A stretch of DNA of 38,968 nucleotides from Christensenella sp. GTDB taxonomy: Bacteria; Bacillota; Clostridia; Christensenellales; Maliibacteriaceae. Each line of letters starts with the position of its first letter. Position 1 is the stretch's first letter. The stretch is taken from NCBI GenBank assembly GCA_019420085.1, contig JAHZHV010000234.1:1-38968 (forward strand), read 5' to 3'. The translations under genes and the position numbers were made by a program. Of this stretch, positions 20,435 to 34,163 are shown in pieces. The notes beneath the pieces are model-generated. The model ran no database searches. It was not told where the DNA came from and saw only the letters and a program-made list of their open reading frames with translations.

Positions 20435-20468
20435 AAAAAGACCTGCACCACTCGTACAGGTCTTTTTT
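20435..20468 (-). terminator. terminator of the LysO pair
   Basis: A GACCTG...CAGGTC stem flanked by A- and T-runs, immediately after the stop codon. Confidence 0.55.
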
Positions 20469-21070
20469 CACCCAAACAGCTTATAGATAACCGAAATCAA
20501 TACAGGCACAAACACCGAACAAATCGTCCCATTTAAAACCGACAATACAACACTTTCCTCATCGGTATATTTCATCATCATGGGTAATGTCGTATCTTCA
20601 CTTGTAGCGCCCGCCGCTGCAATACAGGCGGCAGGATTCATATACTTTGCAATAAGCGGAATGCAGAAAAAAGACAAAATTTCACGCATCAGGCTTCCTA
20701 AAAAGGCTACGCTTCCATACATTGCACCCGACAGCACTTCGATCGTCACACCACCAAGACTATACCATCCCATGCAACTTGCAATGGCCATGCCTTCGGC
20801 CAGCGGATATCGCGTTACAATTGCACAAAGCCACCCTCCCGCGATCGAACCAATCATGACACCAAGTGGAATAAGCAGCAATTTAACATGATATTGTCGT
20901 ATTTTTTGAAATATTCCCCGTTGCTGACCAATGCTGATACCCACTGTTATCATTAACAAGTTTAAGATTATATCACTATTTGCACTTAACCATGTAAAAA
21001 AAGCATTTTGTTCTATGAAGCAGCCGCATAATACTCCGCCAATCAATGCTACAAGAGCAAATACTACCAT
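20468..21070 (-). CDS. LysO/DUF340-family membrane protein, large subunit (putative lysine exporter)
   Basis: 200 aa and polytopic. It pairs with a roughly 90-aa membrane protein 2 nt upstream, as is typical for the split LysO family in Firmicutes. Confidence 0.6.
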   Translation of the reverse strand: MVVFALVALIGGVLCGCFIEQNAFFTWLSANSDIILNLLMITVGISIGQQRGIFQKIRQYHVKLLLIPLGVMIGSIAGGWLCAIVTRYPLAEGMAIASCMGWYSLGGVTIEVLSGAMYGSVAFLGSLMREILSFFCIPLIAKYMNPAACIAAAGATSEDTTLPMMMKYTDEESVVLSVLNGTICSVFVPVLISVIYKLFG

Positions 21071-21072
21071 TC

Positions 21073-21351
21073 TTACCGATCCCTTCTAATTTCCTTGGAA
21101 CCTTTTTTTGTTATTAGATAAACCAATCCCATAGAAGCCACCATCGGAAATAAGCAAAAAAGAAGACTTTCTAATCCAATTGATGGAAGATTACTTAGTA
21201 ATCCATCGTTTTTTCCAAGTGATAATCCCATACAAAAAATCAATAAAACAGTAAATACCGTTTGTATATGGCAAAGTGCTTTATTCCATTTTTTCGGAAA
21301 AATCCATCTTCCAATCGCAATTCCGACACACATTAGTAAAATTGTCTGCAT
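21073..21351 (-). CDS. LysO/DUF340-family membrane protein, small subunit
   Basis: 92 aa counted from ATG 21351 (MQTILLMCVGIAIGR...), with 3 TM segments. The longer track ORF extends into the leader. Confidence 0.55.
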   Translation of the reverse strand: MQTILLMCVGIAIGRWIFPKKWNKALCHIQTVFTVLLIFCMGLSLGKNDGLLSNLPSIGLESLLFCLFPMVASMGLVYLITKKGSKEIRRDR

Positions 21352-21441
21352 CTTCTGTGACCCTTTTCGCATTCTTTTGCAAAGTTGATTTGTATATCTT
21401 CTTTCTCCGTTTGAATGCACCCACACATGCAATGCACCGTT

Positions 21442-21525
21442 TGGAAAAAAGAATAAAGCGTACCGGATACGACGGTTTGCACGCGTATCCGCGTTAGTCT
21501 ATCAAATTTTTTGCGGCTAAGTCAA
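21442..21525 (-). promoter_or_regulatory. candidate promoter plus leader hairpin/U-tract upstream of the LysO pair
   Basis: On the minus strand: TTGACT (21525-21520), 18 nt, then TAGACT (21501-21496). This is followed by the stem CGGATACG...CGTATCCG (21491-21464) and a U-rich stretch (TTTATTCTTTTTT). Confidence 0.3.
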
Positions 21526-21570
21526 GTCACGCGCATTTTGCAAATGCGTTTTCATATACATTCTCCCTCC

Positions 21571-21612
21571 AAAAAAGGGGCGTGTCTGTTCAATACAGAC
21601 ACGCCCCTTTTT
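21571..21612. terminator. bidirectional rho-independent terminator ending the sugar operon
   Basis: AAAAAA, then GGGGCGTGTCTG-ttcaata-CAGACACGCCCC, then TTTTT: a perfect 12-bp stem. Confidence 0.9.
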
Positions 21613-21664
21613 GAAAACGCTCCTAAATATGTGATTGACCCCTTTTTATATATATAATCCTGTA

Positions 21665-23506
21665 TCAAAACACATGGGTCTGCAAAAAGCCATCCATTTC
21701 AATGACAATACAATCCTGCGTTGTCTGCACATACAACAGTTCTGCCTTCTGCAGACAATCCCTGATAAATTCCAATTCCTTCTGGTCATTTTGCCTTGTT
21801 TGATCAAATACATAACGGGCATACGTTACATCATACTCATAATACGACATCAAAGCATCATATTCTTCCTGCGTCAGCATCTGCGTTAATTTCTCTAATT
21901 GCTCTGATTCCAGTGCATAGACATAATAAGCATTATCTGTTTGAATAATTTGATATTCCTGTGGATTCTCTCCCAGTTTTTCCAGTGCATGTTCTACAGC
22001 AAATGTACCATACGGATTATATCCAACCTGTTCGGAAATTCTACCAACCACACAAATTGTCTGCGTCTGTTCGGTCATCTGCGAAGCAATACTCTGCAGC
22101 AGATATTGATAACTGTCACGACTATACATCGACCACATGTTTGCATAAAGGATTGTATTTCCCGTAACCAGCACAGCAAGCAGACCCAACGTCGCACGGC
22201 GAATACAGGGCAAGTGCTTTGAAGCGCAAAAGACTTTGTTCTGAATCCATCCTGCAATGATTTTAAGGCCGCATAACATATGATATACCACCAACGCAAT
22301 CAGAACGAACTGATAGTACGTCAAAATCGTATTTTCAGGCAGAATTAAAAACGGGTAGTAGCAAAGCGGATAGGCACAAAGGTGAATGAACACACTCAAA
22401 AACCGCTTTTGTCGCAGTAATGAAACCAAATACGTCACAATCAGCGCGGCACAAACCAAAAGCAATACCCATCCAAGCCACGGAATCATACAGCGAATCG
22501 TATAAAAATGATGCAGAGGCGTATACATACGCATACCCAATAAGGCGGCACATATCTTCTGCGCAGCCTGCGGCACAACACGTGCGGCAAACCACATTAA
22601 TTTTTGTATTAGCTGCAGTGGCGTAACAAACTGCGCACGCGCACTCTGTGAAGCGGTAATGCCATAGAATTGCTGTACCAAACGTGAAGCTATCAGATAA
22701 GCAACGGCAATCACACCGTACAATACCAAAAGCAGAAACGCCTTTTTAAACCGTTCTTTTTCCTTGGAGTTTTTCTCCATCTGTGCGACGAACAATACAA
22801 AAACCACAGGCGTTGCAATTTGATACATGCAAAATGCACTTAAAAGTAAAAAAGCAAACACCACATAATACAGGGGCTTTTTTTCATCATACGCATGCGC
22901 AAACATTGCATACGCCGCACAAGAACATAACGTTGCATAAATGACAATCGAAACCGACAAATATCCAATGCAATCTGCCGCAATAACGCTGCAGGTACAC
23001 AGCAATACAAAACAAACGGCAAATGCAGCACCTCTGCCGCTACACTGTATATAACAAAACAAAAAACCGGCTAAAACGGACAGGACGCATACATTTACCA
23101 TGCGTGCAATATTTAATTGTTCCAGCGAAAGACCGGAAAAGATACCCGACGTTACTTCCAGCGGGCGTTGCAACCCAACAGCAACCTCCGGCAGCATGCC
23201 CGACGGATTGTGATATGCCCAATAATCATCACCATAGCAAAATCCGTTAAGCAAAAATGGCAGCATGCCAAGCAATACCAGCCCCATCAATACCAGCATC
23301 ATACGCCTTTGCCGCTGCGACTGTTTCCACATGACATATGCACAGACGACAAGCGTCGTGCCCATCGCAATGGAATACCAAAGGCGAATCGCTGTTAAAT
23401 TTTGAAAGCGCAGTGACAGTACAAGAAAAAGAACTGCACAAACACCCAACCAACAAAGGAAAATCCATCTATTTTTTCGAAATACGCTATCCATATACTT
23501 ATGCAT
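21665..23506 (-). CDS. large polytopic membrane protein with a C-terminal soluble domain; candidate GT-C-type (GtrC/YfhO/GtlB-like) extracytoplasmic glycosyltransferase
   Basis: About 613 aa, with roughly 12 or more hydrophobic helices over the first 430 aa and then a 170-aa hydrophilic tail. It is the last gene of the operon. The start ATG 23506 overlaps the GT2 stop by 8 nt. Confidence 0.6.
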   Translation of the reverse strand: MHKYMDSVFRKNRWIFLCWLGVCAVLFLVLSLRFQNLTAIRLWYSIAMGTTLVVCAYVMWKQSQRQRRMMLVLMGLVLLGMLPFLLNGFCYGDDYWAYHNPSGMLPEVAVGLQRPLEVTSGIFSGLSLEQLNIARMVNVCVLSVLAGFLFCYIQCSGRGAAFAVCFVLLCTCSVIAADCIGYLSVSIVIYATLCSCAAYAMFAHAYDEKKPLYYVVFAFLLLSAFCMYQIATPVVFVLFVAQMEKNSKEKERFKKAFLLLVLYGVIAVAYLIASRLVQQFYGITASQSARAQFVTPLQLIQKLMWFAARVVPQAAQKICAALLGMRMYTPLHHFYTIRCMIPWLGWVLLLVCAALIVTYLVSLLRQKRFLSVFIHLCAYPLCYYPFLILPENTILTYYQFVLIALVVYHMLCGLKIIAGWIQNKVFCASKHLPCIRRATLGLLAVLVTGNTILYANMWSMYSRDSYQYLLQSIASQMTEQTQTICVVGRISEQVGYNPYGTFAVEHALEKLGENPQEYQIIQTDNAYYVYALESEQLEKLTQMLTQEEYDALMSYYEYDVTYARYVFDQTRQNDQKELEFIRDCLQKAELLYVQTTQDCIVIEMDGFLQTHVF

Positions 23507-24476
23507 GTCCTTTCTCATTTTTCTGCAGATTCGTCTGCCCGCAGTCAAAATTCAAACGTTCCTGTTCCACAACAAGCGGACGATGCATCAAGCGTGTATT
23601 GATTGCTGCAATGTATTCTCCCAAAAATCCCATAAATGCAAGCAATACAGAACACATCATCGAAAGGATGATAATCGTGGGAGCCTGTCCCGCCTGAAAC
23701 GTATCCCAATACAGCAGCTTTAAAACAAGGTACACAAGACCAATCAAAAAGCTGATGATCGCAAAGAAAATGCCGGCAAATACGGCAATACGCATACCAA
23801 TTTTCGTATAACTGGTAAAGGAAAGCATTGCTGCATCGTAAAGCGTGTACCAATTGTTGTGTGTTTTTCCTGCACGGCGCCGCGCCTGCGTATAAGGTAC
23901 TTCCTTGCGCTTGCCGCCTAATTCCGCCACAATTCCACGGATAAACGGCGTGGAATCATCCAGCCGACGCAATACATCCAGAAAACTTTTATCATACAGG
24001 CCAAAACCGGTAAAATGCTCAATCTGATCTACGCTGGAAAACTTCTTGATCGTTCGATAATACAATGACCGCAGCCAATACATGATTTTATTTTCCTGGC
24101 TTGCAGTCTTGATTCCACAGACAATCTGATATCCTTCCTCCCAATACTTTAAAAAAGTCGGAATCATATCTACCGGATCCTGAAAATCCGCACAAAGCAT
24201 AATCGCACAATCACCATCTGTTTGCGTCAAACCATAATACGGACTATTGAACTGACCAAAGTTTTTGCAGTTTAGAATTGCCTTTACTTTGTGATCGCAG
24301 CTGCAAATTGCGCGCAGAATATCACGCGTACCATCCTGACTCATATTGTCAATAAACAGAATATCGTACTGGTATCGGTCGCGCAGCTGTTCCATCTGAT
24401 CGCGAACTGCTTCATAAATCGCCTGTATATTTTCCCGTTCATTATATGTTGGAATCATGATGGAGACTTTCTTCAT
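23499..24476 (-). CDS. GT2 polyprenol-phosphate glycosyltransferase (GtrB/ArnC/DPM1-like) with two C-terminal TM helices
   Basis: Begins MIPTYNERENI..., with DNMSQDGT, a DxD-like CADFQDP segment, and two C-terminal TM helices. Confidence 0.85.
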   Translation of the reverse strand: MKKVSIMIPTYNERENIQAIYEAVRDQMEQLRDRYQYDILFIDNMSQDGTRDILRAICSCDHKVKAILNCKNFGQFNSPYYGLTQTDGDCAIMLCADFQDPVDMIPTFLKYWEEGYQIVCGIKTASQENKIMYWLRSLYYRTIKKFSSVDQIEHFTGFGLYDKSFLDVLRRLDDSTPFIRGIVAELGGKRKEVPYTQARRRAGKTHNNWYTLYDAAMLSFTSYTKIGMRIAVFAGIFFAIISFLIGLVYLVLKLLYWDTFQAGQAPTIIILSMMCSVLLAFMGFLGEYIAAINTRLMHRPLVVEQERLNFDCGQTNLQKNEKGHA

Positions 24477-25396
24477 GTCACAATAAACTCCTTATAAAAT
24501 GCAATGGTTTGCGCAATGCCTTTTTCAAAGTCAACAAGGGGAACAAAACCTGTATCCTTTGTCAAAGAAGTGATATCTCCCTGTAAATAGCAAGTCTGTC
24601 CTGCGCGAGCGGAAATTTCTCCAAAATCCTGGGATACATCCGTATGAAAAAAGGAAGCTATCTGCGAAACATATTCCTTCAGCGGTCGTCCCTGGCCGCT
24701 TGCAACGCAATATACCGCTTGATCGCGTCCCTTCTGCCCAATCAGATACATAGCACGTGCACAATCATCCCGATACAGATAATCCCAGATTTGCGTGCAG
24801 GATGAAAGCGGCATATGTTCTGCGCGTTGCAAGTGCTCAATCAAAGAACGAATCAGTGTTCCTTCATTATCAAACGGTCCATAAACGCTGAATATCCGTG
24901 CCCAGCAAAAAGAAAGCCCCAATCTTTGACACTCCAATTGGCACAGCTGTCGTGCAGCATTTTTTGCAATACCATAAGCAATCACAGGGTTCGCCGGAGT
25001 GTCCGGCAATGCCGGTGCATGCAGCGTTCCATATTCTGCCTGTGATCCGGCGCCGACAAAGCGTTTGCATCCGACTCGCGCCGCCAGCCGAACTGCATGT
25101 AATGCGCTTTCTATGTTTTTTTGCTGTGTCACCGGATCACGCCGCGCCTTTTGAGAAGTTCCCTCCCAGGCAAAGTGAAAAAACACATCATACACGTCAT
25201 CCGGCAAAGAAAGCGATGCCAACTCACATAAATCACACGGCACAATACGCAGGTTCTCATGTTTGGGCAACCGATCCATCCGTGTCGTTCCCCTGCGGAC
25301 AAGCGCCGTTACACGCATGTCATTTGCAAGACATGTCTGCACACATGCCGAGGCAATCATGCTTGTTGCACCGCTTATAATTGCCGAACGCATCAT
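24473..25396 (-). CDS. NAD(P)-dependent extended SDR (epimerase/reductase; YerF- or CDP-abequose/paratose-synthase-like)
   Basis: Has an N-terminal Rossmann motif (ISGATSMIAS) and a catalytic YGIAK (YxxxK). Its ATGA overlaps the upstream stop codon. Confidence 0.8.
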   Translation of the reverse strand: MMRSAIISGATSMIASACVQTCLANDMRVTALVRRGTTRMDRLPKHENLRIVPCDLCELASLSLPDDVYDVFFHFAWEGTSQKARRDPVTQQKNIESALHAVRLAARVGCKRFVGAGSQAEYGTLHAPALPDTPANPVIAYGIAKNAARQLCQLECQRLGLSFCWARIFSVYGPFDNEGTLIRSLIEHLQRAEHMPLSSCTQIWDYLYRDDCARAMYLIGQKGRDQAVYCVASGQGRPLKEYVSQIASFFHTDVSQDFGEISARAGQTCYLQGDITSLTKDTGFVPLVDFEKGIAQTIAFYKEFIVT

Positions 25397-27183
25397 TTTT
25401 CTTCCCTTTCAAACAAGCGATTTCGATGCACCTCTTCCCGATCAAGGAATGGGAACATATCATCATAATCATGTGCAACCAACGTTCCATCCGGCAGTTT
25501 TTCAGAGGAAATGCGCGGAATCAGAAGCTGCCACTGCGGCGTCATCACTTCGCAAACAACCGGTCCCTGTGCAGACAAAACCTCTTCAATTTTCTGGTCC
25601 ATTTGTTCAACGCTGTCAATTCGCACACCGGCAATTCCATACGCCTGCGCAATCTTCAGCGTATCAGGACACCACACGCCTGAATCAGGGCTTTCCCCAA
25701 CAAATCGATCCTGCATAAAATTACGTTGCGTATGACGGATCAGCAAATACCCATTGTTATTGAAAACAAAAACCTTAATGGGAAGTTTGTTATGCGCAAT
25801 CGTTGCAAATTCCTGCAAGTTCATCTGCAGGCTTCCATCCCCTGTAACGCAAATTGTCTGCCGGCAATCATTTGCGACGCATGCGCCAATACAGGCAGCC
25901 CAATATCCCATTGATGAAATTCCGCCTGTGGTAAGAAAATGCTGTCCTTTTTTGATCTTCCAGCTCTGGCAAACGACATGGAAACACGAGCCTGTATCCA
26001 CAACGATCATCGCATCATTCGGCGTATGCCTGCTCAGCGCGTCGGCAAACAAATAAGAATTTACAGGTTTTTCATCTTTATACGATTCCTGCACAACAGG
26101 ATACCGTTTCTTCCAATCATTGCATTGCGCCACCCATGCCGAAAAATCAGGACATGCCTTTTCCGCAATACACGCCTGGAGACTATGTAAAAATGCGCCT
26201 GCATCCCCCAAAACTTTATAATCAATATGGCAGTTTGGCTTATCCAGCTCCTCAACATCAATATCCACCGCCATAACAAACGCATTTTCCGCAAATTGCC
26301 GCGGATTATGTCCAACAAGGGACGAAGCAAGGCGGCATCCGATTGATAAAACAACATCCGCATTTTGAATGGCAATATTTGCTGCGCGTTCTCCGTAATT
26401 TCCGGGACGCCCAACATACAATTCATCGTCGGAGGGAATCAGATCAATTCCAAGGCGAGCGGTAATCACAGGAATCCGCATTTGATGCGCTACTTTTTCA
26501 AAGATCTCTCTTGCACCGGACAAGGCCACACCCTGTCCTACAAGAAGAACGGGACGTTTAGCATTGCAGATCTTCTCATATGCAGCTTTTGCAGCTTTCT
26601 GCACGTCCGACAGTGAATACAGGGATTCATGCTGTATGACAACCGGTTTTTGAACAGGAACCTGTGCCTTCTGTACATCCAGAGGCACTTCAATCCATAC
26701 CGGACCGGGACGTCCTTGCGTCGCCGTTTCATATGCCGTCTCCAAAACCTGCTGCAGCGTCTGCGGATCATCAATGGTTTTGAAATACTTCACGACATTT
26801 TTAACAATCGGTCCAATATTGATTCCCTGTACACCATATTGGCGAATGTTCGTTTTTTCCTGATACCGTACAAACGGCAAATTCGTATGTCCTGAAATTA
26901 CAATCATCGGTGAAGAATCCGTATATCCTCCGACAACGCCGGTAAGGGCATTACAAGCGCCCGGACCTGCTGTCACCAATGTAATCGCAGGTTTATTTCG
27001 GATTCTTCCATAGGCATCCGCAGCCATGGCGCATGCCTGTTCATGATGATGGCATATAATCTTGTACGCCGGATTTCTCCCAATCGCATCATTCAAAAAC
27101 ATTGCCTGGCCGCCGGTGACCATAAATGCCGTATCAACGCCTTTTTTACTGAAAAAATCAAAAATATATTCCGATACGTTCAT
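25393..27183 (-). CDS. thiamine-diphosphate enzyme of the acetolactate-synthase/YerE family
   Basis: 596 aa. Contains the N-terminal Pyr domain with catalytic Glu (HHEQA), a central domain, and the ThDP motif GDGSLQMN...NNNGY. The RBS is GGGAGGA. Confidence 0.88.
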   Translation of the reverse strand: MNVSEYIFDFFSKKGVDTAFMVTGGQAMFLNDAIGRNPAYKIICHHHEQACAMAADAYGRIRNKPAITLVTAGPGACNALTGVVGGYTDSSPMIVISGHTNLPFVRYQEKTNIRQYGVQGINIGPIVKNVVKYFKTIDDPQTLQQVLETAYETATQGRPGPVWIEVPLDVQKAQVPVQKPVVIQHESLYSLSDVQKAAKAAYEKICNAKRPVLLVGQGVALSGAREIFEKVAHQMRIPVITARLGIDLIPSDDELYVGRPGNYGERAANIAIQNADVVLSIGCRLASSLVGHNPRQFAENAFVMAVDIDVEELDKPNCHIDYKVLGDAGAFLHSLQACIAEKACPDFSAWVAQCNDWKKRYPVVQESYKDEKPVNSYLFADALSRHTPNDAMIVVDTGSCFHVVCQSWKIKKGQHFLTTGGISSMGYWAACIGACVANDCRQTICVTGDGSLQMNLQEFATIAHNKLPIKVFVFNNNGYLLIRHTQRNFMQDRFVGESPDSGVWCPDTLKIAQAYGIAGVRIDSVEQMDQKIEEVLSAQGPVVCEVMTPQWQLLIPRISSEKLPDGTLVAHDYDDMFPFLDREEVHRNRLFEREEK

Positions 27184-27206
27184 CGTGTGTCCTCCCAGAT
27201 TCTGTA

Positions 27207-28244
27207 TTATAAAAGAGAAGATAGATAATAGGATTCGTCGTTTTGTTTGCTGTCTGCATGCAGTTGTTCTGCAATCTGCAGCAGCATATCTTCCTGTCCG
27301 GCGACCACTTTGCGTTTTCCCGCTTCAAGCAGAATATCCCGCGCATCTACGCCAAACGTCTTTGCAGCTTCGATCGCGTGGTACTTAAACGCGCTGAATG
27401 TTCCTGCAATACCATTGATAATACTGATATCATCCACACCCATGGTGCATTGCGGATATTGACGAACCAGATTTTGACTGACGTCCATTAAATGGTACAA
27501 ATCCAGCTTGGTTCGAATTTTTTCCTTCATCAAAAGTGCTGCAATTGCCTCCAGCTGACAATTTCCTGCGCCGGCACCATAGCCACGCAGCGTAGCATCC
27601 ACAATACTTGCACCATGATTAATCGCAATATATGTATTGGAAACCGCCATTCCTAAATTATTATGCGCATGAAATCCAACCTTGATATGTAACTGATCAC
27701 ACAACGCATCGATTGCATCCGCTACCATCTGCGGCGTAGATGCACCGGCACTGTCCATGATGATAACGCCGTGCGCACCATATGACTGCATCTTCAGCGC
27801 TTCTTCCACCAGGCGATCCGTCCCAATCATATGATACATCATCAAAACGCCATATACGGGCAATCCGCGTGAAGCAACATATTCAATATGCTGCTTTGTC
27901 ACATCTGCCTCCGTACAATGACATCCGATCTTTACAAGATCTGCACCAAGTTCTATTGCCGGTTTCAGATTCTCTTCAATCGTTCCAAAACCGGGAATCA
28001 TATAGACACCTAATTTTGTACGGTGCAGATTTTCCCTTGCTGTGCGCAGCATTTCCTCATCGCTGATTTTAGACATTCCAATATGCAGGCTGGAAGCGCC
28101 AAGACCATTCCCATGGCCCACAATGATGCAATCCAATCCTGCATCATCCATTGCACTGCAATAATCGCGAATATCCTGTGCACAAAACTGATGCTTATTG
28201 GCATGACTGCCGTCACGCAAAGTCGCGTCAAAAAACTGAATCAC
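27207..28244 (-). CDS. 4-hydroxy-2-oxovalerate aldolase family protein (DmpG/MhpE-like)
   Basis: Begins with DATLRDGSH, has HMGL-like TIM barrel metal ligands (HAHNNLG), and carries a C-terminal DmpG communication-domain-like tail. Confidence 0.88.
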   Translation of the reverse strand: MIQFFDATLRDGSHANKHQFCAQDIRDYCSAMDDAGLDCIIVGHGNGLGASSLHIGMSKISDEEMLRTARENLHRTKLGVYMIPGFGTIEENLKPAIELGADLVKIGCHCTEADVTKQHIEYVASRGLPVYGVLMMYHMIGTDRLVEEALKMQSYGAHGVIIMDSAGASTPQMVADAIDALCDQLHIKVGFHAHNNLGMAVSNTYIAINHGASIVDATLRGYGAGAGNCQLEAIAALLMKEKIRTKLDLYHLMDVSQNLVRQYPQCTMGVDDISIINGIAGTFSAFKYHAIEAAKTFGVDARDILLEAGKRKVVAGQEDMLLQIAEQLHADSKQNDESYYLSSLL

Positions 28245-29158
28245 ACCTTAGCCTCCTCTGCACCTTTTTGTACGACGTACATCTCAGCCATATGTACTGC
28301 CGCACAGGTAATAATATCAAGATTTCCGGCATAGGAAGGCAAAAAGTCACCGCTTCCTGTTACGCCGATGGAAACGGCAAGACGGCCGTTTTCATAAACC
28401 GGCGGAAGAATCATATGATATCCCGACACATACCGGCGAATCTGCTCAACCATGGATGTAACGGCATCTTCAATCTTTTGCATGTCCGGATGATCCACCA
28501 GCGCGTAAAGTGTATTGCGCATCATGATCGGCGGATTTGCAGGATTTAACACAATGATGGCCTTCGCCTTTTCAATCCCCGTAAACAACCGCAGCGCATC
28601 GGACGTCGTCTGTGTAAATTCATCAATATTTGCCCGTGTGCCTGGACCTGCGGATTTCGATGCAATCGTCGCAATCATTTCAAAATACTTTACATTCGGC
28701 TGCACACGGGATATTGCAACGGCAATGGGTACCGTCGCCTGCCCGCCGCAGGTAATCATATTGATATTATCATGCTTTAAGACTGCATCGGCATTTAATG
28801 TCGGAATACAAAACGGACCGATATGCGCCGGTGTCAAATCGATGGTAAACTTCCCAAGTTTCTTTAAAATCGGCGCATGATACATATGGACATTTGCTGA
28901 TGTTGCATCAAAAACAATATCGCAGCACTGCGGATTGCGGACAAGATAGTCAATGGAATCATATGTCACCGGCACACCCATTTGTATCGCCTGCTGAATA
29001 TTTTTGGAATCCGGATTATGACCGGCAAAAATTCCGCATTCCAAAAAACTGCTTTTTCGCACTTTGAACAGCAGATCCATGCCAATATTTCCCGTTCCAA
29101 GAATTGCAACTTTCACTTTTTCCAATGCTCTATCTTCATCTCCCTTTCTCCGTTTCAC
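28241..29158 (-). CDS. acetaldehyde dehydrogenase (acetylating) family protein (DmpF/MhpF-like)
   Basis: Contains VAILGTGNIGMDL (Rossmann), the NMITCGGQATVP active-site Cys segment, and a semialdehyde-DH fold. ATGA overlaps occur at both ends. Confidence 0.88.
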   Translation of the reverse strand: MKRRKGDEDRALEKVKVAILGTGNIGMDLLFKVRKSSFLECGIFAGHNPDSKNIQQAIQMGVPVTYDSIDYLVRNPQCCDIVFDATSANVHMYHAPILKKLGKFTIDLTPAHIGPFCIPTLNADAVLKHDNINMITCGGQATVPIAVAISRVQPNVKYFEMIATIASKSAGPGTRANIDEFTQTTSDALRLFTGIEKAKAIIVLNPANPPIMMRNTLYALVDHPDMQKIEDAVTSMVEQIRRYVSGYHMILPPVYENGRLAVSIGVTGSGDFLPSYAGNLDIITCAAVHMAEMYVVQKGAEEAKV

Positions 29159-29637
29159 TTCTGTGACATCTTATCAGACCGGGAAAAAGCCCAGAATTTA
29201 TTAAGAATAAAGTTCAACGGAATTGTAACAATCAGCGTAAATAGACTGGCAAGCCAATATACAACATGTACCTTACCTAACCAGATTTTCAAAAGCGGCG
29301 CAAGTACAAGTCCTGTAATCGCATAGCAGATAAATGTACGCATGTATGCAATAAGATGCATTTTCAAAGTACGTTTATGTGCGCTTTGAAAAACATAGCG
29401 ACTGTTCCAGTAATAGGAATTGGTTACGCTGATCACAAATGCAATCGCTGTAACCACAATAACCTTCATGCCATAGTTCCATGCAATATCGCGAAAAAGT
29501 ACATAATAGCACAGCATTTCGATTGCATATGAAATGCATGTATTGGATAAACCAACGATACCGAATTTCACAAACTGCACTACCGGAGCCAATGCTCCTT
29601 CCTGCAATGTTTTGAAAAACGCATGTATCTTTTTCAT
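29155..29637 (-). CDS. gtrA: GtrA-family membrane protein (putative polyprenol-P-sugar flippase component)
   Basis: 160 aa with 4 TM helices, a VQFVKFGIVGLSNT N-terminal motif and an FxLNKFWAF C-terminal motif. Confidence 0.85.
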   Translation of the reverse strand: MKKIHAFFKTLQEGALAPVVQFVKFGIVGLSNTCISYAIEMLCYYVLFRDIAWNYGMKVIVVTAIAFVISVTNSYYWNSRYVFQSAHKRTLKMHLIAYMRTFICYAITGLVLAPLLKIWLGKVHVVYWLASLFTLIVTIPLNFILNKFWAFSRSDKMSQK

Positions 29638-30986
29638 TTTTTCTGTGCCTCAATCGCCTCTTGCACAGTCTGCGCCATGTAATCAATCATTTCATCCGTC
29701 ATGCCCGGATATACACCCAGCCAGAATGTATTGTTCATAATAAAATCTGTATTTTCAAGCGTCCCAACTACGCGATATGCGTCCGTATCCCGAATTGCAT
29801 CAAAACACGGATGCTTAATCAGATTACCACTGAACAACAATCTGGTCTGTACATTACGCGATTCTATAAAACGCGTCATCTCATTGCGGTCAAGACCACT
29901 TTGCGGCCGGACGGAAATCAAAAAGCCAAACCAGCTTGGCTCACTGGCAGGCGCCGGCTCCGGCAAAATCAGAAAATCAGACAGCGGTTCCAGTGCCGCA
30001 CGAAGACGCGCCCAATTGTGCTGACGCCGCTTAATAAAGGATGGAAATTTTTTTAACTGCTCACATCCGACAGCAGCCTGCATATCCGTTACCTTGAGAT
30101 TGTATCCAAAGTGACTGTATACATACTTATGATCATATCCCAAGGGAAGTTGTCCATACTGACGGTCAAAGCGATGACCACAGAAATTATCCTGTCCGGA
30201 AGGACAGATACAATCCCGTCCCCAATCACGGAAACTAAGAATCAGTCGATGCAAAAGCGAATCATTTGTATATACGCAGCCGCCTTCTCCCATCGTCATA
30301 TGATGCGGCGGATAAAAGCTGCTCGTTCCAATATCGCCCCATGTACCGGTATACCGCGTTTCATGATCGATTGTATAACGGGTACCCAAAGCATCGCAGT
30401 TATCCTCAACCAGCCAAAGATGATTTTCCTGACAAAAAGCTTTGACTGCCGAAAGATCAAATGGATTTCCAAGCGTATGCGCAATCATAACGGCCTTTGT
30501 CTTTTCTGAAAGCGCCGCCTGCAATTTGGTAACGTCAATATTATATTGCGGAACCGTCACATCTACAAAAACAGGAACCGCACCATATTGCAGCGCAGGC
30601 GTAACGGTCGTGGGAAAACCACAAGCCACCGTAATAATCTCATCACCTTTTTTAATGCGCCTTTCCCCCAGCTCCGGTGCTGTCAGCGCCATAAAAGCAA
30701 TTAAATTGGCAGAAGATCCGCTGTTAACAAGATGTGCATAACGTACACCGATCCATTTTGCAAATTCCGTCTCAAACTCATCCGCAAAACGTCCCGTCGT
30801 CAGCCAAAAATCAAGCGCGGCATCAACCAAAGCACACATTTCCGCATCATCAAAAACCCGCGCAGCATAAGTAATGCGATCCCCAGGCTCAAAATGTTTT
30901 TTCTGTTGTTTAAAATCCCGATAGTATTCCGATACAAGTGCGCGGATCTGTTCCCTAGCCTGCGCTTCATTCTGCCAATTACTCAT
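29634..30986 (-). CDS. rfbH: CDP-6-deoxy-L-threo-D-glycero-4-hexulose 3-dehydrase (E1), RfbH/DdhC type
   Basis: DegT/DnrJ/EryC1 fold in which the PLP lysine is replaced by His (SFYPPHHMTMGEGG). It also has the C-x-C-x7-C Fe-S motif (DCICPSGQDNFC). Confidence 0.9.
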   Translation of the reverse strand: MSNWQNEAQAREQIRALVSEYYRDFKQQKKHFEPGDRITYAARVFDDAEMCALVDAALDFWLTTGRFADEFETEFAKWIGVRYAHLVNSGSSANLIAFMALTAPELGERRIKKGDEIITVACGFPTTVTPALQYGAVPVFVDVTVPQYNIDVTKLQAALSEKTKAVMIAHTLGNPFDLSAVKAFCQENHLWLVEDNCDALGTRYTIDHETRYTGTWGDIGTSSFYPPHHMTMGEGGCVYTNDSLLHRLILSFRDWGRDCICPSGQDNFCGHRFDRQYGQLPLGYDHKYVYSHFGYNLKVTDMQAAVGCEQLKKFPSFIKRRQHNWARLRAALEPLSDFLILPEPAPASEPSWFGFLISVRPQSGLDRNEMTRFIESRNVQTRLLFSGNLIKHPCFDAIRDTDAYRVVGTLENTDFIMNNTFWLGVYPGMTDEMIDYMAQTVQEAIEAQKK

Positions 30987-32053
30987 GCGCCCTCTCCTTT
31001 TTCAAAGCATTCAATTTGTTCGTCCATGACATCGGAGATTTTTTCTCCTGCCAAATATGCTTTACTCCAAAGACATGTCATTTCAATTGCTTTTTCAATA
31101 TGCCAACGCGGTTTCCAACCAAAACATGCCTTGATTTTGCTGCAATCCAATTTCAAAAAATTTGCTTCATGCGGCGCATTTTGTTCCGCTTTATTCTGCC
31201 AGGAAGCACCGTCACCCCACTGATCACAAAACATCTGTACCAGCGTGCCGGTTGTAACGCAATCACATTCATCCGGTCCAACATTATACCATCCGGCATA
31301 CTTCTTATCCTGCGCTTGCATCGCTGCGATCATTAAATACGCAAAAAGGGGTTCCAGCACATGCTGATAAGGACGCGTGGAATACGGATTTCGAACGCCG
31401 ATGACTTCTTTATTCTGCATGGCCCGTACACAATCCGGGATAATACGGTCATTTGCAAAATCACCGCCGCCAATAACATTTCCCGCACGTGCAGTTGAAA
31501 TTGCCGGAGCATCTTCGTTGGAAAAAAAGCTGTTCTTATAACAATGCGTAACAAGTTCTGAGCAGCTTTTGGAATTGGAATACGGATCAAATCCATCCAG
31601 CATTTCTTCTTCCCGATAACCCCATACCCATTCGCGATTGTGATACACTTTATCCGTCGTCACATTTAAAACGCTTTGCACACCACCGCATAACCGAACG
31701 CATTCCAGAAGATTCACAGTCCCCATAACGTTCGTCTCATATGTATAACGCGGATTTCGATAACTATCCCGCACAATAGGCTGTGCTGCAAGATGCAGAA
31801 CAATCTGCGGCTTTGCCTGGCAAAAACTTGCATACAGCGTTTCAAAATCACGCACATCAGCAATGATGCTCGTCATATTTTCCTGTAAATCAGCCAATTC
31901 AAATAAATTGGGCTGTGTAGGCGGTTCAAGAGAATATCCCGTAACCTGTGCGCCTGCACGCAAAAGAATGCGGCATAGCCAACTTCCCTTAAACCCGGTA
32001 TGACCCGTGACAAAAACACGTTTTCCGCGATAGAATTCCAATATATCCATCAT
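30983..32053 (-). CDS. rfbG: CDP-glucose 4,6-dehydratase
   Basis: Contains VFVTGHTGFKGSWL and an extended SDR YxxSK motif (PYSNSK). The start ATG 32053 shares one base with the rfbF stop (TGATG). The longer track ORF has no RBS. Confidence 0.92.
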   Translation of the reverse strand: MMDILEFYRGKRVFVTGHTGFKGSWLCRILLRAGAQVTGYSLEPPTQPNLFELADLQENMTSIIADVRDFETLYASFCQAKPQIVLHLAAQPIVRDSYRNPRYTYETNVMGTVNLLECVRLCGGVQSVLNVTTDKVYHNREWVWGYREEEMLDGFDPYSNSKSCSELVTHCYKNSFFSNEDAPAISTARAGNVIGGGDFANDRIIPDCVRAMQNKEVIGVRNPYSTRPYQHVLEPLFAYLMIAAMQAQDKKYAGWYNVGPDECDCVTTGTLVQMFCDQWGDGASWQNKAEQNAPHEANFLKLDCSKIKACFGWKPRWHIEKAIEMTCLWSKAYLAGEKISDVMDEQIECFEKGEGA

Positions 32054-32832
32054 CAGTCCTGCCATACCTTCCAAGGCGCATTGCCGCTTGTCCAAAGTTT
32101 TTCAAGCATATCCATTTCCCGCTTGGTATCCATACATTGCCAATATCCGCGGTGCATATAACTCATCAACTCGCCTTCACGTGCCAGACGTTCCAGCGGT
32201 TCCCTTTCAAAAACGGTGTTGTCACCTTCAATGTAATCAAAAACTTCTGGCTCTAAAACCATATATCCTGCATTTATTGGCGCACTGTCATCCTGCCTTT
32301 TTTCGCGAAAAGATCGCACGGCATTATCACCGCCAATATCCAAAACACCCTTTTGCTGTTCCAGCATAACGGCAGTCAACGTCGCTTTATGTCCATGTGA
32401 ACGATGAAAATCCAACAGCTTCGTAATATCCACATCACAAACGCCATCACCGTACGTCATCATAAATGTCTCTTTTCCCACATACGGCGCAATGCGTTTG
32501 ATTCTGCCGCCTGTCATCGTATTTAAACCGGTATCCACAACCGTTACCTTCCATGGTTCTGCCTTGCGGTTGTGCACGATCATTTGATTTCCCTGTGTAA
32601 AATCAAATGTTATATCGCTCGTATGCAAAAAATAGTCAGCAAACCATTCTTTTATCACATGTTGTTTATATCCGGCACAAATAATAAACTCATGCAATCC
32701 ATAATGTGCATATTCTTTCATGATATGCCATAAAATCGGCATACCTCCAATTTCAATCATGGGTTTTGGTTTATACTGACTTTCTTCACTGATGCGTGTA
32801 CCGTATCCGCCTGCAAGAAGTACAACTTTCAT
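32053..32832 (-). CDS. rfbF: glucose-1-phosphate cytidylyltransferase
   Basis: Close motif-by-motif resemblance to Salmonella RfbF (LAGGYGTRISEE..KPKPM.EIGG.PILWHIMK...GYWQCMDT.R). The start ATG 32832 follows AAGGAG. Confidence 0.93.
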   Translation of the reverse strand: MKVVLLAGGYGTRISEESQYKPKPMIEIGGMPILWHIMKEYAHYGLHEFIICAGYKQHVIKEWFADYFLHTSDITFDFTQGNQMIVHNRKAEPWKVTVVDTGLNTMTGGRIKRIAPYVGKETFMMTYGDGVCDVDITKLLDFHRSHGHKATLTAVMLEQQKGVLDIGGDNAVRSFREKRQDDSAPINAGYMVLEPEVFDYIEGDNTVFEREPLERLAREGELMSYMHRGYWQCMDTKREMDMLEKLWTSGNAPWKVWQD

Positions 32833-32926
32833 TTTCTTCTCCTTATTCATTCCCTATCTGCACTGTATCTTTTGCCTTTGCAATAGGTCTTTTATTTGAA
32901 ATTGAAAACACCTTTCCTACTATATC

Positions 32927-32955
32927 ATCCTAATCATCTTTATATCGTTTGTCAA
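32927..32955 (-). promoter_or_regulatory. candidate sigma-A promoter of the sugar operon
   Basis: On the minus strand: TTGACA (32955-32950), 17 nt, then TAGGAT (32932-32927). This gives a 5' UTR of about 95 nt. Confidence 0.45.
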
Positions 32956-33107
32956 CATATAACTATTTCGGATAATCGGATAAGATGTGACTGAAAAAGC
33001 TCTCCTTTGTATCTTTTCATTCTCTACCCGTCTGCATCGTATCCGTATCATACTTTTTATTACGTCTATAAATAACTGTCATTTTAAATTCTCAAATACT
33101 TTTTTTA

Positions 33108-33142
33108 ATAAAAAAACAGTGTGGAAATCCACACTGTTTTTG
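33108..33142. terminator. bidirectional rho-independent terminator after the GGGtGRT gene
   Basis: AAAAAA, then ACAGTGTGGA-aa-TCCACACTGT, then TTTT. Confidence 0.8.
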
Positions 33143-33155
33143 ATCAAAATAGAGG

Positions 33156-34163
33156 TTACTTCTGCGCTTCTTCGACCGCAACAGCAACCGCAACGGATGC
33201 ACCGACCATGGGGTTGTTGCCCATGCCGATCAGACCCATCATTTCTACATGCGCGGGAACGGAAGAAGAGCCGGCGAACTGTGCATCACCATGCATACGA
33301 CCCATGGTATCCGTCATGCCATAGCTGGCAGGACCGGCTGCCATGTTGTCCGGATGCAGGGTACGACCCGTGCCGCCGCCGGAAGCAACGGAGAAATACT
33401 TCTTGCCGTTGTCATAGCACCATTTCTTGTAAGTGCCCGCAACAGGATGCTGGAAGCGCGTGGGGTTGGTGGAGTTACCGGTAATGGAAACGTCAACCTT
33501 CTCAAAGCGCATAATCGCTACGCCTTCGGAAACGTCGTCTGCACCATAGCAGCGAACCTGTGCATTAGGACCATCGGAATACGCCTTTTCTTCCACGATA
33601 TTCAGCGTACCGGTCGCATAATCATACTTGGTCTCTACAAACGTAAAGCCATTGATACGGCTGATGATCATTGCCGCATCTTTGCCAAGACCATTCAGGA
33701 TAACGCGAAGCGGCTGCTTGCGAACCTTATTTGCAGTCTTTGCAATGCCGATTGCACCTTCTGCAGCGGCAAAAGACTCATGACCTGCCAGGAAGCAGAA
33801 GCATTCCGTCTGCTCACGAAGCAGCATTGCGGCAAGATTTCCGTGACCCAAACCAACCTGACGCTGATCTGCAACGGAACCCGGGATGCAGAATGCCTGC
33901 AGGCCGATACCAATCGCAGCAGCGGCATCCGCAGCATTTTTGCAGCCCTTCTTCAGCGCAACAGCTGCGCCAAGGGTATACGCCCAGCAGGCGTTCTCAA
34001 AAGCAATGGGCTGAATGCCGCGCACAATCGCCGCAACATCAATACCCTTTTCTTTGCAGATTTTATCCGCATCCTCCAAAGAAGCGATGCCATATTCGGC
34101 CATGCAGGCTTCAATCTGCTTGATTCTGCGTTCATATCCTTCAAACTGTACCATGTTTTTCAC
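33156..34163 (-). CDS. GGGtGRT-family protein (function unknown)
   Basis: 335 aa carrying the family-defining ASGGGTGRTLHPDN motif. It has no TM or signal sequence. Confidence 0.8.
   Translation of the reverse strand: MKNMVQFEGYERRIKQIEACMAEYGIASLEDADKICKEKGIDVAAIVRGIQPIAFENACWAYTLGAAVALKKGCKNAADAAAAIGIGLQAFCIPGSVADQRQVGLGHGNLAAMLLREQTECFCFLAGHESFAAAEGAIGIAKTANKVRKQPLRVILNGLGKDAAMIISRINGFTFVETKYDYATGTLNIVEEKAYSDGPNAQVRCYGADDVSEGVAIMRFEKVDVSITGNSTNPTRFQHPVAGTYKKWCYDNGKKYFSVASGGGTGRTLHPDNMAAGPASYGMTDTMGRMHGDAQFAGSSSVPAHVEMMGLIGMGNNPMVGASVAVAVAVEEAQK

What the first reader, a model, noticed from the sequence alone, without database searches (positions are those of the whole stretch)
25393..29158. 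DmpF/DmpG (acetaldehyde dehydrogenase / 4-hydroxy-2-oxovalerate aldolase) pair embedded in a nucleotide-sugar operon, next to the ThDP enzyme
Seen in sequence: clear DmpF-like (VAILGTGNIG, NMITCGGQA) and DmpG-like (DATLRDGSH, HAHNNLG) proteins sit between gtrA and the ThDP enzyme. They overlap each other by ATGA.

Established knowledge: this channelled pair normally ends meta-cleavage aromatic catabolism (4-hydroxy-2-oxovalerate <-> pyruvate + acetaldehyde <-> acetyl-CoA). No other meta-cleavage gene is present in this window.

Inference, two non-exclusive roles:
- (a) Run in the synthetic direction, the pair turns acetyl-CoA + pyruvate into a 4-hydroxy-2-oxoacid. The neighbouring ThDP enzyme would decarboxylate this and ligate it to the 4-keto sugar, giving a side chain longer than the C2 branch of yersiniose. 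Natural long-chain 4-C-branched 3,6-dideoxy sugars such as caryophyllose and erwiniose show that such chemistry exists.
- (b) The aldolase acts directly on a sugar-derived carbonyl.

Either role would be a new use of the DmpFG module.
Basis: partly seen in the sequence, partly recalled or inferred. Interest (0 to 1): 0.85.

Follow-up and report, generated by a model that had tools for sequence, protein, structure and literature searches.

The report
Known branched-sugar pathway, new bacterial host
The DmpF/DmpG-like enzyme pair is real and most likely makes the keto-acid that the neighbouring thiamine enzyme grafts onto a dideoxy sugar, but this use of the pair was published in 2022 for Pectobacterium, so the window holds a new member (a gut-type Clostridia bacterium) of a known pathway.

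Summary
A DmpF-like acylating acetaldehyde dehydrogenase (28241-29158, -) and a DmpG-like aldolase (27207-28244, -) lie between gtrA and a ThDP enzyme, inside a tightly packed 10-gene CDP-sugar operon. One detail is wrong: the overlap is GTGA, not ATGA.

Reading (a) is well supported but is not new. Steitz et al. 2022 (PMC9306805) described the same module (ErwE/F/I/J) for erwiniose in Pectobacterium atrosepticum. They showed that ErwE takes 4-hydroxy-2-oxopentanoate and rejects pyruvate, which argues against reading (b).

The linkage is not a chance insertion.
- 274 GTDB species carry this DmpG clade.
- In the 80 best loci, a YerE-like ThDP gene follows DmpG in 61 of 64 cases, and RfbH is nearby in 32 of 36.
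- All 20 metagenomic ThDP relatives at 49% identity or more have DmpFG directly upstream. None of 6 relatives at 41% or less do.

What this work adds:
- The clade carries Tyr/Phe at the BphI Leu87 position and Phe at the Tyr290 position. This mirrors the engineered L87W/Y290F variant that inverts BphI to 4R, the enantiomer ErwE uses.
- The host is an anaerobic Clostridia bacterium.
- GtrA, a GtrB-like GT2 and a GtrII-like protein suggest delivery through a lipid carrier.
- No E3 reductase gene is present.

Verdict: new member of a known kind.

The parts
32053..32850 (-). RfbF: glucose-1-phosphate cytidylyltransferase, first gene of the operon
   Evidence: TIGR02623 at 384 bits, cutoff 300
30983..32095 (-). 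RfbG: CDP-glucose 4,6-dehydratase. The ORF begins at TTG 32095; the true start is probably an ATG near 32053 that abuts the rfbF stop.
   Evidence: TIGR02622 at 448.8 bits, cutoff 278; translation
29634..30986 (-). RfbH/E1: CDP-6-deoxy-L-threo-D-glycero-4-hexulose 3-dehydrase. It has PHH in place of the aminotransferase Lys, and a C-x-C-x7-C motif.
   Evidence: NF011936 at 720.8 bits, cutoff 423; SFYPPHHMTMGEGG and CICPSGQDNFC in the translation
29155..29637 (-). GtrA-family membrane protein, the putative flippase for the lipid-linked sugar
   Evidence: PF04138 at 68.1 bits
28241..29158 (-). DmpF/BphJ-like CoA-acylating acetaldehyde dehydrogenase. Catalytic Cys137 lies in NMITCGGQA. The GTG start overlaps the gtrA stop.
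   Evidence: TIGR03215 at 394.7 bits; PDB matches 7z3s, 4lrs_B, 1nvm_B
27207..28244 (-). DmpG/BphI-like class II pyruvate aldolase. R10, D11, H14, H192 and H194 are conserved. Y81 and F283 replace the catabolic Leu and Tyr. It overlaps dmpF by GTGA.
   Evidence: TIGR03217 at 363.5 bits; alignments to 1nvm, 8ih7, 4jn6, 4lrs; clade signature
25393..27183 (-). YerE-like ThDP-dependent carboligase (Glu48, GDG...NN motif), 23 nt after dmpG with a GGGAGG ribosome-binding site
   Evidence: Three TPP_enzyme domains. Best PDB hit is JanthE 8rph at 386 bits, against 233 bits or less for acetolactate synthases
24473..25396 (-). Extended SDR (NAD-dependent epimerase/dehydratase family), the putative YerF/ErwF-like branch ketoreductase
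   Evidence: PF01370 at 113 bits. A 36-46% identical homologue follows the ThDP gene in many related loci
23499..24476 (-). GT2 with a C-terminal membrane anchor (GtrB/ArnC/PgfS-like polyprenyl-phosphate glycosyltransferase)
   Evidence: PF00535 at 81.5 bits; NF047588 PgfS at 155 bits and NF007986 ArnC at 113 bits, both below cutoff
21665..23548 (-). Large polytopic membrane protein, GtrII-like (putative extracytoplasmic transferase). The start codon is uncertain.
   Evidence: PF14264 at 31.9 bits, cutoff 30; hydrophobic translation
32927..32955 (-). Sigma-70-like promoter match (TTGACA-17-TAGGAT) upstream of rfbF. This is weak evidence only.
   Evidence: such matches are no more frequent here than in shuffled sequence

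Best explanation
The window carries a self-contained operon for an erwiniose-type, long-branched 3,6-dideoxyhexose and for its export.

1. RfbF, RfbG and RfbH (E1) convert glucose-1-phosphate to CDP-3,6-dideoxy-4-keto-D-glucose. The reductase partner E3 is not encoded here and must be supplied in trans.
2. The DmpF-like enzyme reduces acetyl-CoA to acetaldehyde.
3. Its partner, the DmpG-like aldolase, condenses acetaldehyde with pyruvate to give 4-hydroxy-2-oxopentanoate. The Leu-to-Tyr and Tyr-to-Phe changes in its active site predict the 4R enantiomer.
4. The YerE-like ThDP enzyme decarboxylates this keto-acid and adds the resulting four-carbon acyl-anion equivalent to C-4 of the keto sugar.
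5. The SDR reduces the branch ketone, giving a CDP-sugar with a 1,3-dihydroxybutyl branch.
6. The GtrB-like GT2 then transfers the sugar to a polyprenyl phosphate, GtrA flips it across the membrane, and the GtrII-like protein attaches it to a cell-envelope polymer.

Shown here: the gene identities, the conserved residues and the conserved synteny. Taken from the literature: the chemistry of the module (ErwE) and the stereochemistry mutants of BphI. Inferred: the direction of DmpFG, the 4R product, the exact sugar, the lipid-carrier route and the acceptor.
For: Gene identities all score above the curated cutoffs, and the operon is tightly coupled, with 4-nt overlaps at most junctions.

Published precedent: the P. 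atrosepticum erwiniose cluster has ErwE (ThDP), ErwF (reductase), ErwJ (acetaldehyde dehydrogenase) and ErwI (BphI-like aldolase). ErwE accepts 4-hydroxy-2-oxopentanoate with a ketone acceptor, prefers the R enantiomer and rejects pyruvate (PMC9306805; review PMC12247030).

Synteny seen from the DmpG side:
- 274 GTDB species carry the clade.
- Among the best 80 loci, DmpF is directly upstream in 75 of 78.
- A YerE-like ThDP gene lies within 3 kb downstream in 61 of 64, and is directly adjacent in 50.
- Of 36 loci with full flanks, 32 have RfbH, 32 have RfbF and 31 have RfbG.

Synteny seen from the ThDP side: 20 of 20 metagenomic relatives at 49% identity or more, with enough upstream DNA, have DmpF and DmpG directly upstream. 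None of 6 relatives at 37-41% identity do, although 3 of those sit next to RfbF/RfbH.

Active site: the metal and pyruvate ligands are conserved. Position 81 (BphI Leu87) is Phe in 41, Tyr in 40 and Leu in 1 of 82 clade members. Position 283 (BphI Tyr290) is Phe in all 82. Six catabolic enzymes all have Leu and Tyr there. BphI is 4S-specific, and the L87W/Y290F and L87N/Y290F variants become 4R-specific (PMC3962088).

The host is an anaerobe of the Clostridia: PFOR is in the window, and GyrB is 73-84% identical to Clostridia/Christensenellales. Oxygen-dependent meta-cleavage is therefore implausible.

The ThDP enzyme is closest to JanthE, a YerE-like enzyme that accepts 4-hydroxy-2-oxovalerate.
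Against: - Nothing here is biochemical, and no glycan structure is known for this organism.
- I could not retrieve the ErwE/F/I/J sequences, so orthology to the characterised proteins is untested. The consecutive accession numbers in the paper suggest the Pectobacterium order is ThDP-SDR-DmpF-DmpG, which differs from DmpF-DmpG-ThDP-SDR here.
- No E3 (AscD/RfbI) reductase gene is in the window, and only 3 of 84 related loci have an FNR-type reductase. How 3-deoxygenation is completed is therefore unexplained.
- The 4R prediction is extrapolated from Trp and Asn mutants of BphI to natural Tyr/Phe.
- GtrB-type GT2 enzymes are known with UDP-sugars. Use of a CDP-sugar is an assumption.
- The GtrII match is barely above the Pfam cutoff.
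Confidence: 0.75

Rival explanations
1. One reading: the ThDP enzyme first installs an acetyl branch from pyruvate, as YerE does. The DmpG-like aldolase then extends that sugar-bound methyl ketone with acetaldehyde supplied by DmpF.
For: It would give the same carbon skeleton. The aldolase clade differs from the catabolic enzymes in its active site, which could in principle reflect a different nucleophile.
Against: Steitz et al. tested exactly this alternative. ErwE did not accept pyruvate but did accept the pre-formed hydroxy-keto-acid (PMC9306805). The window aldolase keeps Arg10, Asp11, His14, His192 and His194, which bind pyruvate and the metal. The two changed residues are those that, in BphI, sense the configuration at C4 rather than the pyruvyl part. 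A buried active site fed by a channel is a poor fit for a CDP-sugar (inference).
Confidence: 0.07
2. The pathway logic is the same but the donor or product differs. For example, propionyl-CoA could give 4-hydroxy-2-oxohexanoate and a C5 branch, or the sugar could be a stereoisomer of erwiniose or a sugar that keeps its 3-hydroxyl because no E3 is present.
For: ErwE also converts 4-hydroxy-2-oxohexanoate and 4-hydroxy-2-oxobutanoate. E3 is absent. Related loci show variation, including an extra HpcH-type aldolase and divergent or split ThDP enzymes.
Against: Position 83 (BphI Leu89, which limits aldehyde length) is a bulky Ile, which favours short aldehydes. RfbH/E1 is conserved in 32 of 36 loci, so 3-deoxygenation is evidently wanted. 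The window has no extra aldolase.
Confidence: 0.15
3. The pair is an ordinary catabolic DmpFG (4-hydroxy-2-oxovalerate to pyruvate plus acetyl-CoA) that landed in the sugar operon by chance.
For: NCBIfam would name both proteins as the catabolic enzymes.
Against: The window has no hydratase, dioxygenase or meta-cleavage hydrolase. The host is an anaerobe. The DmpF-DmpG-ThDP order is conserved in many phyla. The clade is only 35-42% identical to DmpG, against 54-75% within the clade. True catabolic copies sit in xyl or mhp operons.
Confidence: 0.02

Closest known systems
Erwiniose biosynthetic module ErwE/ErwF/ErwI/ErwJ of Pectobacterium atrosepticum SCRI1043 (Steitz et al. 2022, PMC9306805)
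   Same: Same four enzyme types: a YerE-like ThDP carboligase, an NAD(P)H reductase, a BphI-like aldolase and a BphJ-like acetaldehyde dehydrogenase. They sit next to the genes for CDP-3,6-dideoxy-4-keto-glucose. The proposed logic is the same: aldol first, then ThDP ligation, then reduction.
   Different: The host is a Gram-positive-type anaerobic Clostridia bacterium, not an enterobacterium with LPS. The gene order is DmpF-DmpG-ThDP-SDR. The cluster is wired to GtrA, a GtrB-like GT2 and a GtrII-like protein rather than to an O-antigen assembly cluster. No E3 gene is present. Sequence-level orthology could not be tested.
Yersiniose A pathway YerE/YerF (Yersinia pseudotuberculosis)
   Same: A ThDP enzyme of the same subclass acts on the same CDP-keto sugar, followed by a ketoreductase.
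   Different: YerE uses pyruvate to give a C2 branch and has no aldolase/dehydrogenase pair beside it. ThDP relatives of the window enzyme at 41% identity or less likewise lack DmpFG.
Catabolic DmpG-DmpF / BphI-BphJ / MhpE-MhpF / HsaF-HsaG aldolase-dehydrogenase complexes
   Same: Same two folds, same communication and dimerisation domains, same catalytic Cys, same metal and pyruvate ligands, and overlapping genes.
   Different: About 40% identity. The proposed direction is reversed. The stereo-determining Leu87/Tyr290 pair is replaced by Tyr (or Phe) and Phe. There is no meta-cleavage context.
Caryophyllose (M. marinum MMAR_2331/2332) and gastriose clusters
   Same: Same unifying scheme: an aldolase-made hydroxy-keto-acid donor, a YerE-like enzyme and a reductase.
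   Different: Those clusters use an HpcH/citrate-lyase-type aldolase and longer donors. The window uses the DmpFG type only. About 19 related loci carry both aldolase types.
Three-component Gtr-type glycosylation (GtrA/GtrB/GtrC; CsbB-GtcA-YfhO; PgfS system)
   Same: A GtrA-family protein, a membrane-anchored GT2 and a large polytopic membrane protein are encoded together.
   Different: Known systems use UDP-sugars. Here the donor would be a CDP-linked branched dideoxy sugar, and the acceptor is unknown.

Membership tests
DmpG/BphI-type 4-hydroxy-2-oxovalerate aldolase (TIGR03217) | HMGL-like TIM barrel plus C-terminal DmpG communication domain, scoring above the curated cutoff | tested here: met
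   PF00682 at 146.8 bits, PF07836 at 79.6 bits, TIGR03217 at 363.5 bits against a cutoff of 286
DmpG/BphI-type 4-hydroxy-2-oxovalerate aldolase (TIGR03217) | Metal ligands Asp18/His200/His202 and catalytic Arg17/His21 (DmpG numbering) | tested here: met
   D11, H192, H194, R10 and H14 align to them. They are invariant in 82 clade members
DmpG/BphI-type 4-hydroxy-2-oxovalerate aldolase (TIGR03217) | 4S-determining pair Leu87/Tyr290 (BphI numbering) | tested here: not met
   The window has Y81 and F283. In the clade, position 81 is F in 41, Y in 40 and L in 1, and position 283 is F in all 82. Six catabolic enzymes have Leu and Tyr
DmpG/BphI-type 4-hydroxy-2-oxovalerate aldolase (TIGR03217) | Located in a meta-cleavage or steroid catabolic operon (hydratase, dioxygenase, hydrolase nearby) | tested here: not met
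   No such gene in the window. Compare the xyl and mhp contexts
DmpF/BphJ acylating acetaldehyde dehydrogenase (TIGR03215) | Rossmann domain plus AcetDehyd-dimer domain, catalytic Cys in the NxxTCGGQA motif, gene adjacent to the aldolase gene | tested here: met
   394.7 bits against a cutoff of 282; Cys137 in NMITCGGQA; 4-nt overlap with dmpG
YerE-like ThDP carboligases (decarboxylase superfamily) | Three TPP_enzyme domains, a cofactor-activating Glu and a GDG...NN motif, and closer to a YerE-like structure than to acetolactate synthases | tested here: met
   Pfam N/M/C domains; Glu48 and GDGS...NNNGY; JanthE 8rph at 386 bits over residues 2-587 against 233 bits or less for AHAS
YerE-like ThDP carboligases (decarboxylase superfamily) | Accepts a ketone (CDP-4-keto sugar) as acceptor | not testable with these tools
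   Needs an enzyme assay. Supported only by the neighbouring RfbF/G/H genes
Erwiniose-type module (ErwE/F/I/J) | Co-located ThDP enzyme, reductase, BphI-like aldolase and BphJ-like dehydrogenase beside the CDP-3,6-dideoxy-4-keto-glucose genes | tested here: met
   All are present in one operon. The arrangement is conserved in related loci
Erwiniose-type module (ErwE/F/I/J) | Sequence orthology to ErwE, ErwF, ErwI and ErwJ | not testable with these tools
   The sequences (WP_011093010-13) could not be retrieved. The paper holds no supplement as text, and Pectobacterium was not among the 80 loci returned
Erwiniose-type module (ErwE/F/I/J) | ThDP enzyme uses (R)-4-hydroxy-2-oxopentanoate and rejects pyruvate | not testable with these tools
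   Indirect only: the ThDP subclade at 49% identity or more always has DmpFG, and relatives at 41% or less never do
CDP-3,6-dideoxyhexose pathway (RfbF/RfbG/RfbH/RfbI) | Cytidylyltransferase, 4,6-dehydratase and E1 dehydrase | tested here: met
   TIGR02623 at 384 bits, TIGR02622 at 448.8 bits, NF011936 at 720.8 bits, all above cutoff
CDP-3,6-dideoxyhexose pathway (RfbF/RfbG/RfbH/RfbI) | E3 reductase (AscD/RfbI; 2Fe-2S plus FNR-like) | tested here: not met
   No ORF in the window has such domains. The FNR-like gene of the Sphaerochaeta locus has homologues in only 3 of 84 loci and none in the window
Gtr-type three-component glycosylation | GtrA-family protein, membrane-anchored GT2 and a polytopic GT-C-like transferase | tested here: inconclusive
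   GtrA at 68.1 bits and GT2 at 81.5 bits are clear. GtrII scores only 31.9 bits against a cutoff of 30. Donor and acceptor are unknown

The most novel reading that the evidence does not exclude
The sugar-linked DmpG clade is a natural, stereo-inverted (4R-selective) 4-hydroxy-2-oxoacid aldolase. It would have arisen by moving the aromatic side chain from the Tyr290 position to the Leu87 position. It feeds a C4-branched dideoxy sugar that anaerobic gut Clostridia, and many other anaerobe phyla including CPR bacteria, load from a CDP-sugar onto a polyprenyl phosphate and attach to their cell envelope outside the membrane. The sugar would be made without a dedicated E3 reductase.
Probability: 0.35. 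Interest if true: 0.5.

Novelty: new member of a known kind. Interest (0 to 1): 0.32.

Why it matters
- It shows that automated names ('4-hydroxy-2-oxovalerate aldolase', 'acetaldehyde dehydrogenase') wrongly suggest aromatic catabolism for hundreds of anaerobe genomes. These genes belong to surface-glycan synthesis.
- It extends the published branched-sugar scheme from LPS of proteobacteria and mycobacterial lipooligosaccharides to gut and rumen Clostridia, spirochaetes, CPR bacteria and others. It therefore predicts unusual long-branched dideoxy sugars on their surfaces, which could act as antigens or phage receptors.
- The Tyr/Phe81 plus Phe283 signature gives a simple sequence marker for the biosynthetic clade. 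It also gives a testable route to natural 4R-selective pyruvate aldolases for biocatalysis.

Tried and rejected
- Fetching ErwE/F/I/J for a direct comparison failed. The paper's supplement is not held. Pectobacterium was not among the 80 loci kept from the genome scan. The plasmid collection holds only catabolic or NRPS-linked DmpG at 51% identity or less. E. coli genomes match only mhpF.
- Krug et al. 2024, the in silico survey of more than 200 YerE-like clusters, is not held. I cannot say whether clusters like this one are already listed there.
Taxonomy was obtained from GyrB homologues instead.
- I searched for an E3-type reductase using the only in-cluster FNR-like gene available, from the Sphaerochaeta locus. 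It was found in 3 of 84 loci. A canonical AscD query was not available.
- I did not run structure prediction, because the tool returns no coordinates, so the geometry of residues 81 and 283 could not be measured.
- I considered the GGGtGRT/NifU-like pair upstream as a possible redox partner. I rejected it as part of the operon because a relative has the pair without the sugar genes.

Full report
**1. Observation**

The minus strand of the window carries a compact operon from 32850 down to 21665. In order, its genes are:
- rfbF (glucose-1-phosphate cytidylyltransferase)
- rfbG (CDP-glucose 4,6-dehydratase)
- rfbH (the E1 3-dehydrase)
- gtrA
- a DmpF-like gene (28241-29158)
- a DmpG-like gene (27207-28244)
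- a ThDP enzyme (25393-27183)
- an SDR
- a membrane-anchored GT2
- a large GtrII-like membrane protein

Most junctions overlap by 4 nt. The two genes of interest score above NCBIfam's equivalog cutoffs: TIGR03215 at 394.7 bits against 282, and TIGR03217 at 363.5 bits against 286. They have the expected Pfam domains, including the DmpG communication domain and the dehydrogenase dimerisation domain. The only factual error is the overlap, which reads AAG GTG TGA, so it is GTGA with a GTG start, not ATGA. No dioxygenase, hydratase or meta-cleavage hydrolase turned up in the Pfam scans of the window's other long ORFs.

**2. Host and setting**

The window is the replication-origin region of a bacterium: parB, dnaA, dnaN ... 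recF, remA-like, gyrB, DUF4349, gyrA. It also carries a pyruvate:ferredoxin oxidoreductase. GyrB is 84% identical to a 'Clostridia bacterium' MAG, 76% to a 'Christensenellales bacterium' and 73% to Maliibacterium massiliense (Bacillota, Clostridia). The host is therefore an anaerobe, for which oxygen-dependent meta-cleavage is not expected.

The sugar operon lies between dnaN and recF. A relative with 84% GyrB identity has recF directly after dnaN. Another relative with 87% identity, from a Hadza gut metagenome, has different genes at that site. The operon's G+C content (0.42-0.49) is below that of the flanks. The operon therefore looks like a horizontally acquired cassette in a variable site.

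**3. What is already known**

Steitz et al. 2022 (PMC9306805) proposed and partly demonstrated a 'unifying scheme' for long-branched sugars. In Pectobacterium atrosepticum, the ThDP enzyme ErwE and the reductase ErwF lie next to ErwI (BphI-like pyruvate aldolase) and ErwJ (BphJ-like acetaldehyde dehydrogenase), beside the genes for CDP-3,6-dideoxy-4-keto-glucose. ErwE coupled 4-hydroxy-2-oxopentanoate to a ketone that mimics the sugar, preferred the R enantiomer, and did not accept pyruvate. The authors explicitly used that last result to exclude the order 'branch first, aldol second'.

**4. Is the linkage general?**

*From the aldolase side.* The window aldolase has thousands of relatives; the best 120 are all 59% identical or more. 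Three contexts checked directly all show DmpF-DmpG-ThDP-SDR beside rfbF/G/H: the window's own contig, a Sphaerochaeta genome and Butyrivibrio sp. WCD3002.

A scan of one genome per GTDB species, using a clade-specific motif ([IV][IV]VGHGNGL; catabolic enzymes read VAHGDGL), found 274 species. The 80 best loci span:
- Bacillota
- Spirochaetota
- Pseudomonadota
- Elusimicrobia
- Omnitrophota
- several CPR/Patescibacteria lineages
- Fibrobacterota
- Lentisphaerota
- Gastranaerophilales
- one Altiarchaeota MAG

In these loci:

| Feature | Count |
|---|---|
| DmpF directly upstream of DmpG | 75 of 78 |
| YerE-like ThDP gene within 3 kb downstream, same strand | 61 of 64 (50 directly adjacent) |
| RfbH present, among loci with full 10-kb flanks | 32 of 36 |
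| RfbF present, same set | 32 of 36 |
| RfbG present, same set | 31 of 36 |

*From the ThDP side.* Among metagenomic relatives of the window ThDP enzyme, all 20 with 49% identity or more and enough upstream sequence have DmpF and DmpG directly upstream. None of 6 relatives at 37-41% identity do, even though three of those sit beside RfbF/RfbH.

The ThDP subclade and the DmpFG pair therefore travel together. That is what one expects if the pair makes this subclade's donor substrate.

**5. The enzymes themselves**

*Aldolase.* It keeps the metal ligands and catalytic residues of DmpG (window D11, H192, H194, R10, H14). It differs at the two positions that flank C4 of the substrate in BphI.
- BphI Leu87 corresponds to window Tyr81.
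- BphI Tyr290 corresponds to window Phe283.

Across 82 clade members, position 81 is Phe in 41, Tyr in 40 and Leu in 1. Position 283 is Phe in all 82. DmpG, 8ih7, HsaF, 4lrs, XylK and MhpE all have Leu and Tyr there.

According to the review by Baker and Seah (PMC3962088), BphI makes and cleaves only the 4S enantiomer. Its Y290F variant loses stereocontrol, and the L87W/Y290F and L87N/Y290F variants use only 4R. The natural clade therefore resembles the engineered 4R enzyme, and 4R is the enantiomer ErwE uses. This is an inference, but it removes an apparent mismatch: a catabolic-type 4S aldolase would feed ErwE the wrong enantiomer. I found no mention of this signature in the papers I could read.

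Position 83 (BphI Leu89, which limits aldehyde length) is a bulky Ile, consistent with acetaldehyde or propionaldehyde as substrate. The clade is 54-75% identical to the window protein but only 35-42% identical to DmpG.

*Dehydrogenase.* It has the catalytic Cys (Cys137, NMITCGGQA).

*ThDP enzyme.* It has Glu48 and a canonical GDG...NN motif. It matches JanthE (8rph) over its full length at 386 bits, against 233 bits or less for acetolactate synthases. JanthE is a YerE-like enzyme that also accepts 4-hydroxy-2-oxovalerate.

**6. Downstream steps**

GtrA, a GtrB/ArnC/PgfS-like GT2 and a GtrII-like polytopic protein end the operon. Homologues of the GT2 (46-64% identity) and of GtrA recur in many of the Bacillota loci. 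This suggests transfer of the finished sugar to a polyprenyl phosphate, flipping across the membrane, and attachment outside the membrane. The donor type (CDP-sugar) and the acceptor are assumptions.

**7. Open problem**

RfbH is a bona fide E1, scoring 720.8 bits, with PHH in place of the aminotransferase Lys and a C-x-C-x7-C motif. By established knowledge of the 3,6-dideoxyhexose pathway, E1 needs the reductase E3. No E3-like gene is in the window. The only in-cluster FNR-like reductase I found, in the Sphaerochaeta locus, has homologues in just 3 of 84 loci. In these anaerobes a general ferredoxin or flavodoxin may substitute, but this is untested.

**8. Verdict**

- The mechanism proposed as role (a) is most likely right (confidence about 0.75) but is already published.
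- Role (b) is unlikely.
- The window is a new member of a known kind of pathway.

Modest new points are the host and its envelope type, the Gtr-type wiring, the missing E3, the breadth of distribution, and the aromatic-81/Phe-283 signature that predicts 4R stereochemistry.

I could not compare the window proteins directly with ErwE/F/I/J because those sequences were not retrievable. The gene order implied by their accession numbers differs from the order here. Whether the Pectobacterium pair belongs to the same clade remains open.

Noticed in passing
window 19172-36120; L088, L089: The dnaN-recF interval is a variable island in this lineage. The window has a GGGtGRT/NifU-like pair, the sugar operon and LysO genes there. 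One relative has recF directly after dnaN. Another has the GGGtGRT pair plus HTH/antitoxin genes instead.
   Followed up: partly
L013, L015-L017, L020, L022, L041, L055, L059, L067, L070, L072-L074, L098, L107, L109, L110: About 19 related loci carry an extra HpcH/HpaI-family aldolase. In most it lies directly after DmpG and is followed by a divergent ThDP enzyme (36-42% identity to the window's). In L098, L107, L109 and L110 it lies after a window-like ThDP enzyme (52-64% identity). Two aldolases in series suggest a longer branch, and many of these loci are Treponema or Spirochaetaceae.
   Followed up: partly
L046 11008-12797; L053 7280-9112: In two loci DmpFG sits beside a split E1alpha/E1beta-type ThDP enzyme instead of a YerE-like one. 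The DmpFG donor module therefore seems to pair with a second class of sugar-branching ThDP enzymes.
   Followed up: no
L061 6005-12190; L085 (Streptomyces parvulus pSPA1) 7126-10871: DmpFG also occurs outside sugar clusters. In L061 it sits next to an aminotransferase and two adenylation enzymes. In L085 it lies inside an NRPS cluster with a methyltransferase and a fumarylacetoacetate-hydrolase-family protein. The Streptomyces aldolase has Leu81 and Phe283.
   Followed up: no
window 29634-30986 and whole window: RfbH/E1 is present, but no E3 (AscD/RfbI-type) reductase gene is in the window or in most related loci.
   Followed up: partly
window 2758-6675 (-) versus 2848-6540 (+): A 1305-aa ORF with no Pfam hit lies antisense to the real pyruvate:ferredoxin oxidoreductase gene (1230 aa, + strand). 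It is an artefact of the higher G+C there. A 562-aa antisense ORF (33249-34937, +) likewise overlaps the GGGtGRT genes.
   Followed up: yes
window 33156-34886 (-): A GGGtGRT protein (PF14057, 657 bits) and a 236-aa partner with a weak NifU_N match sit directly upstream of the sugar operon. A relative has this pair without the operon, so it is probably unrelated.
   Followed up: partly
L048 (Candidatus Altiarchaeota MAG); L030, L042, L060, L063, L073, L079, L084 (CPR/Patescibacteria): The DmpFG sugar-type pair occurs in an archaeal MAG and in several CPR bacteria with very small genomes. Contamination or horizontal transfer was not assessed.
   Followed up: no
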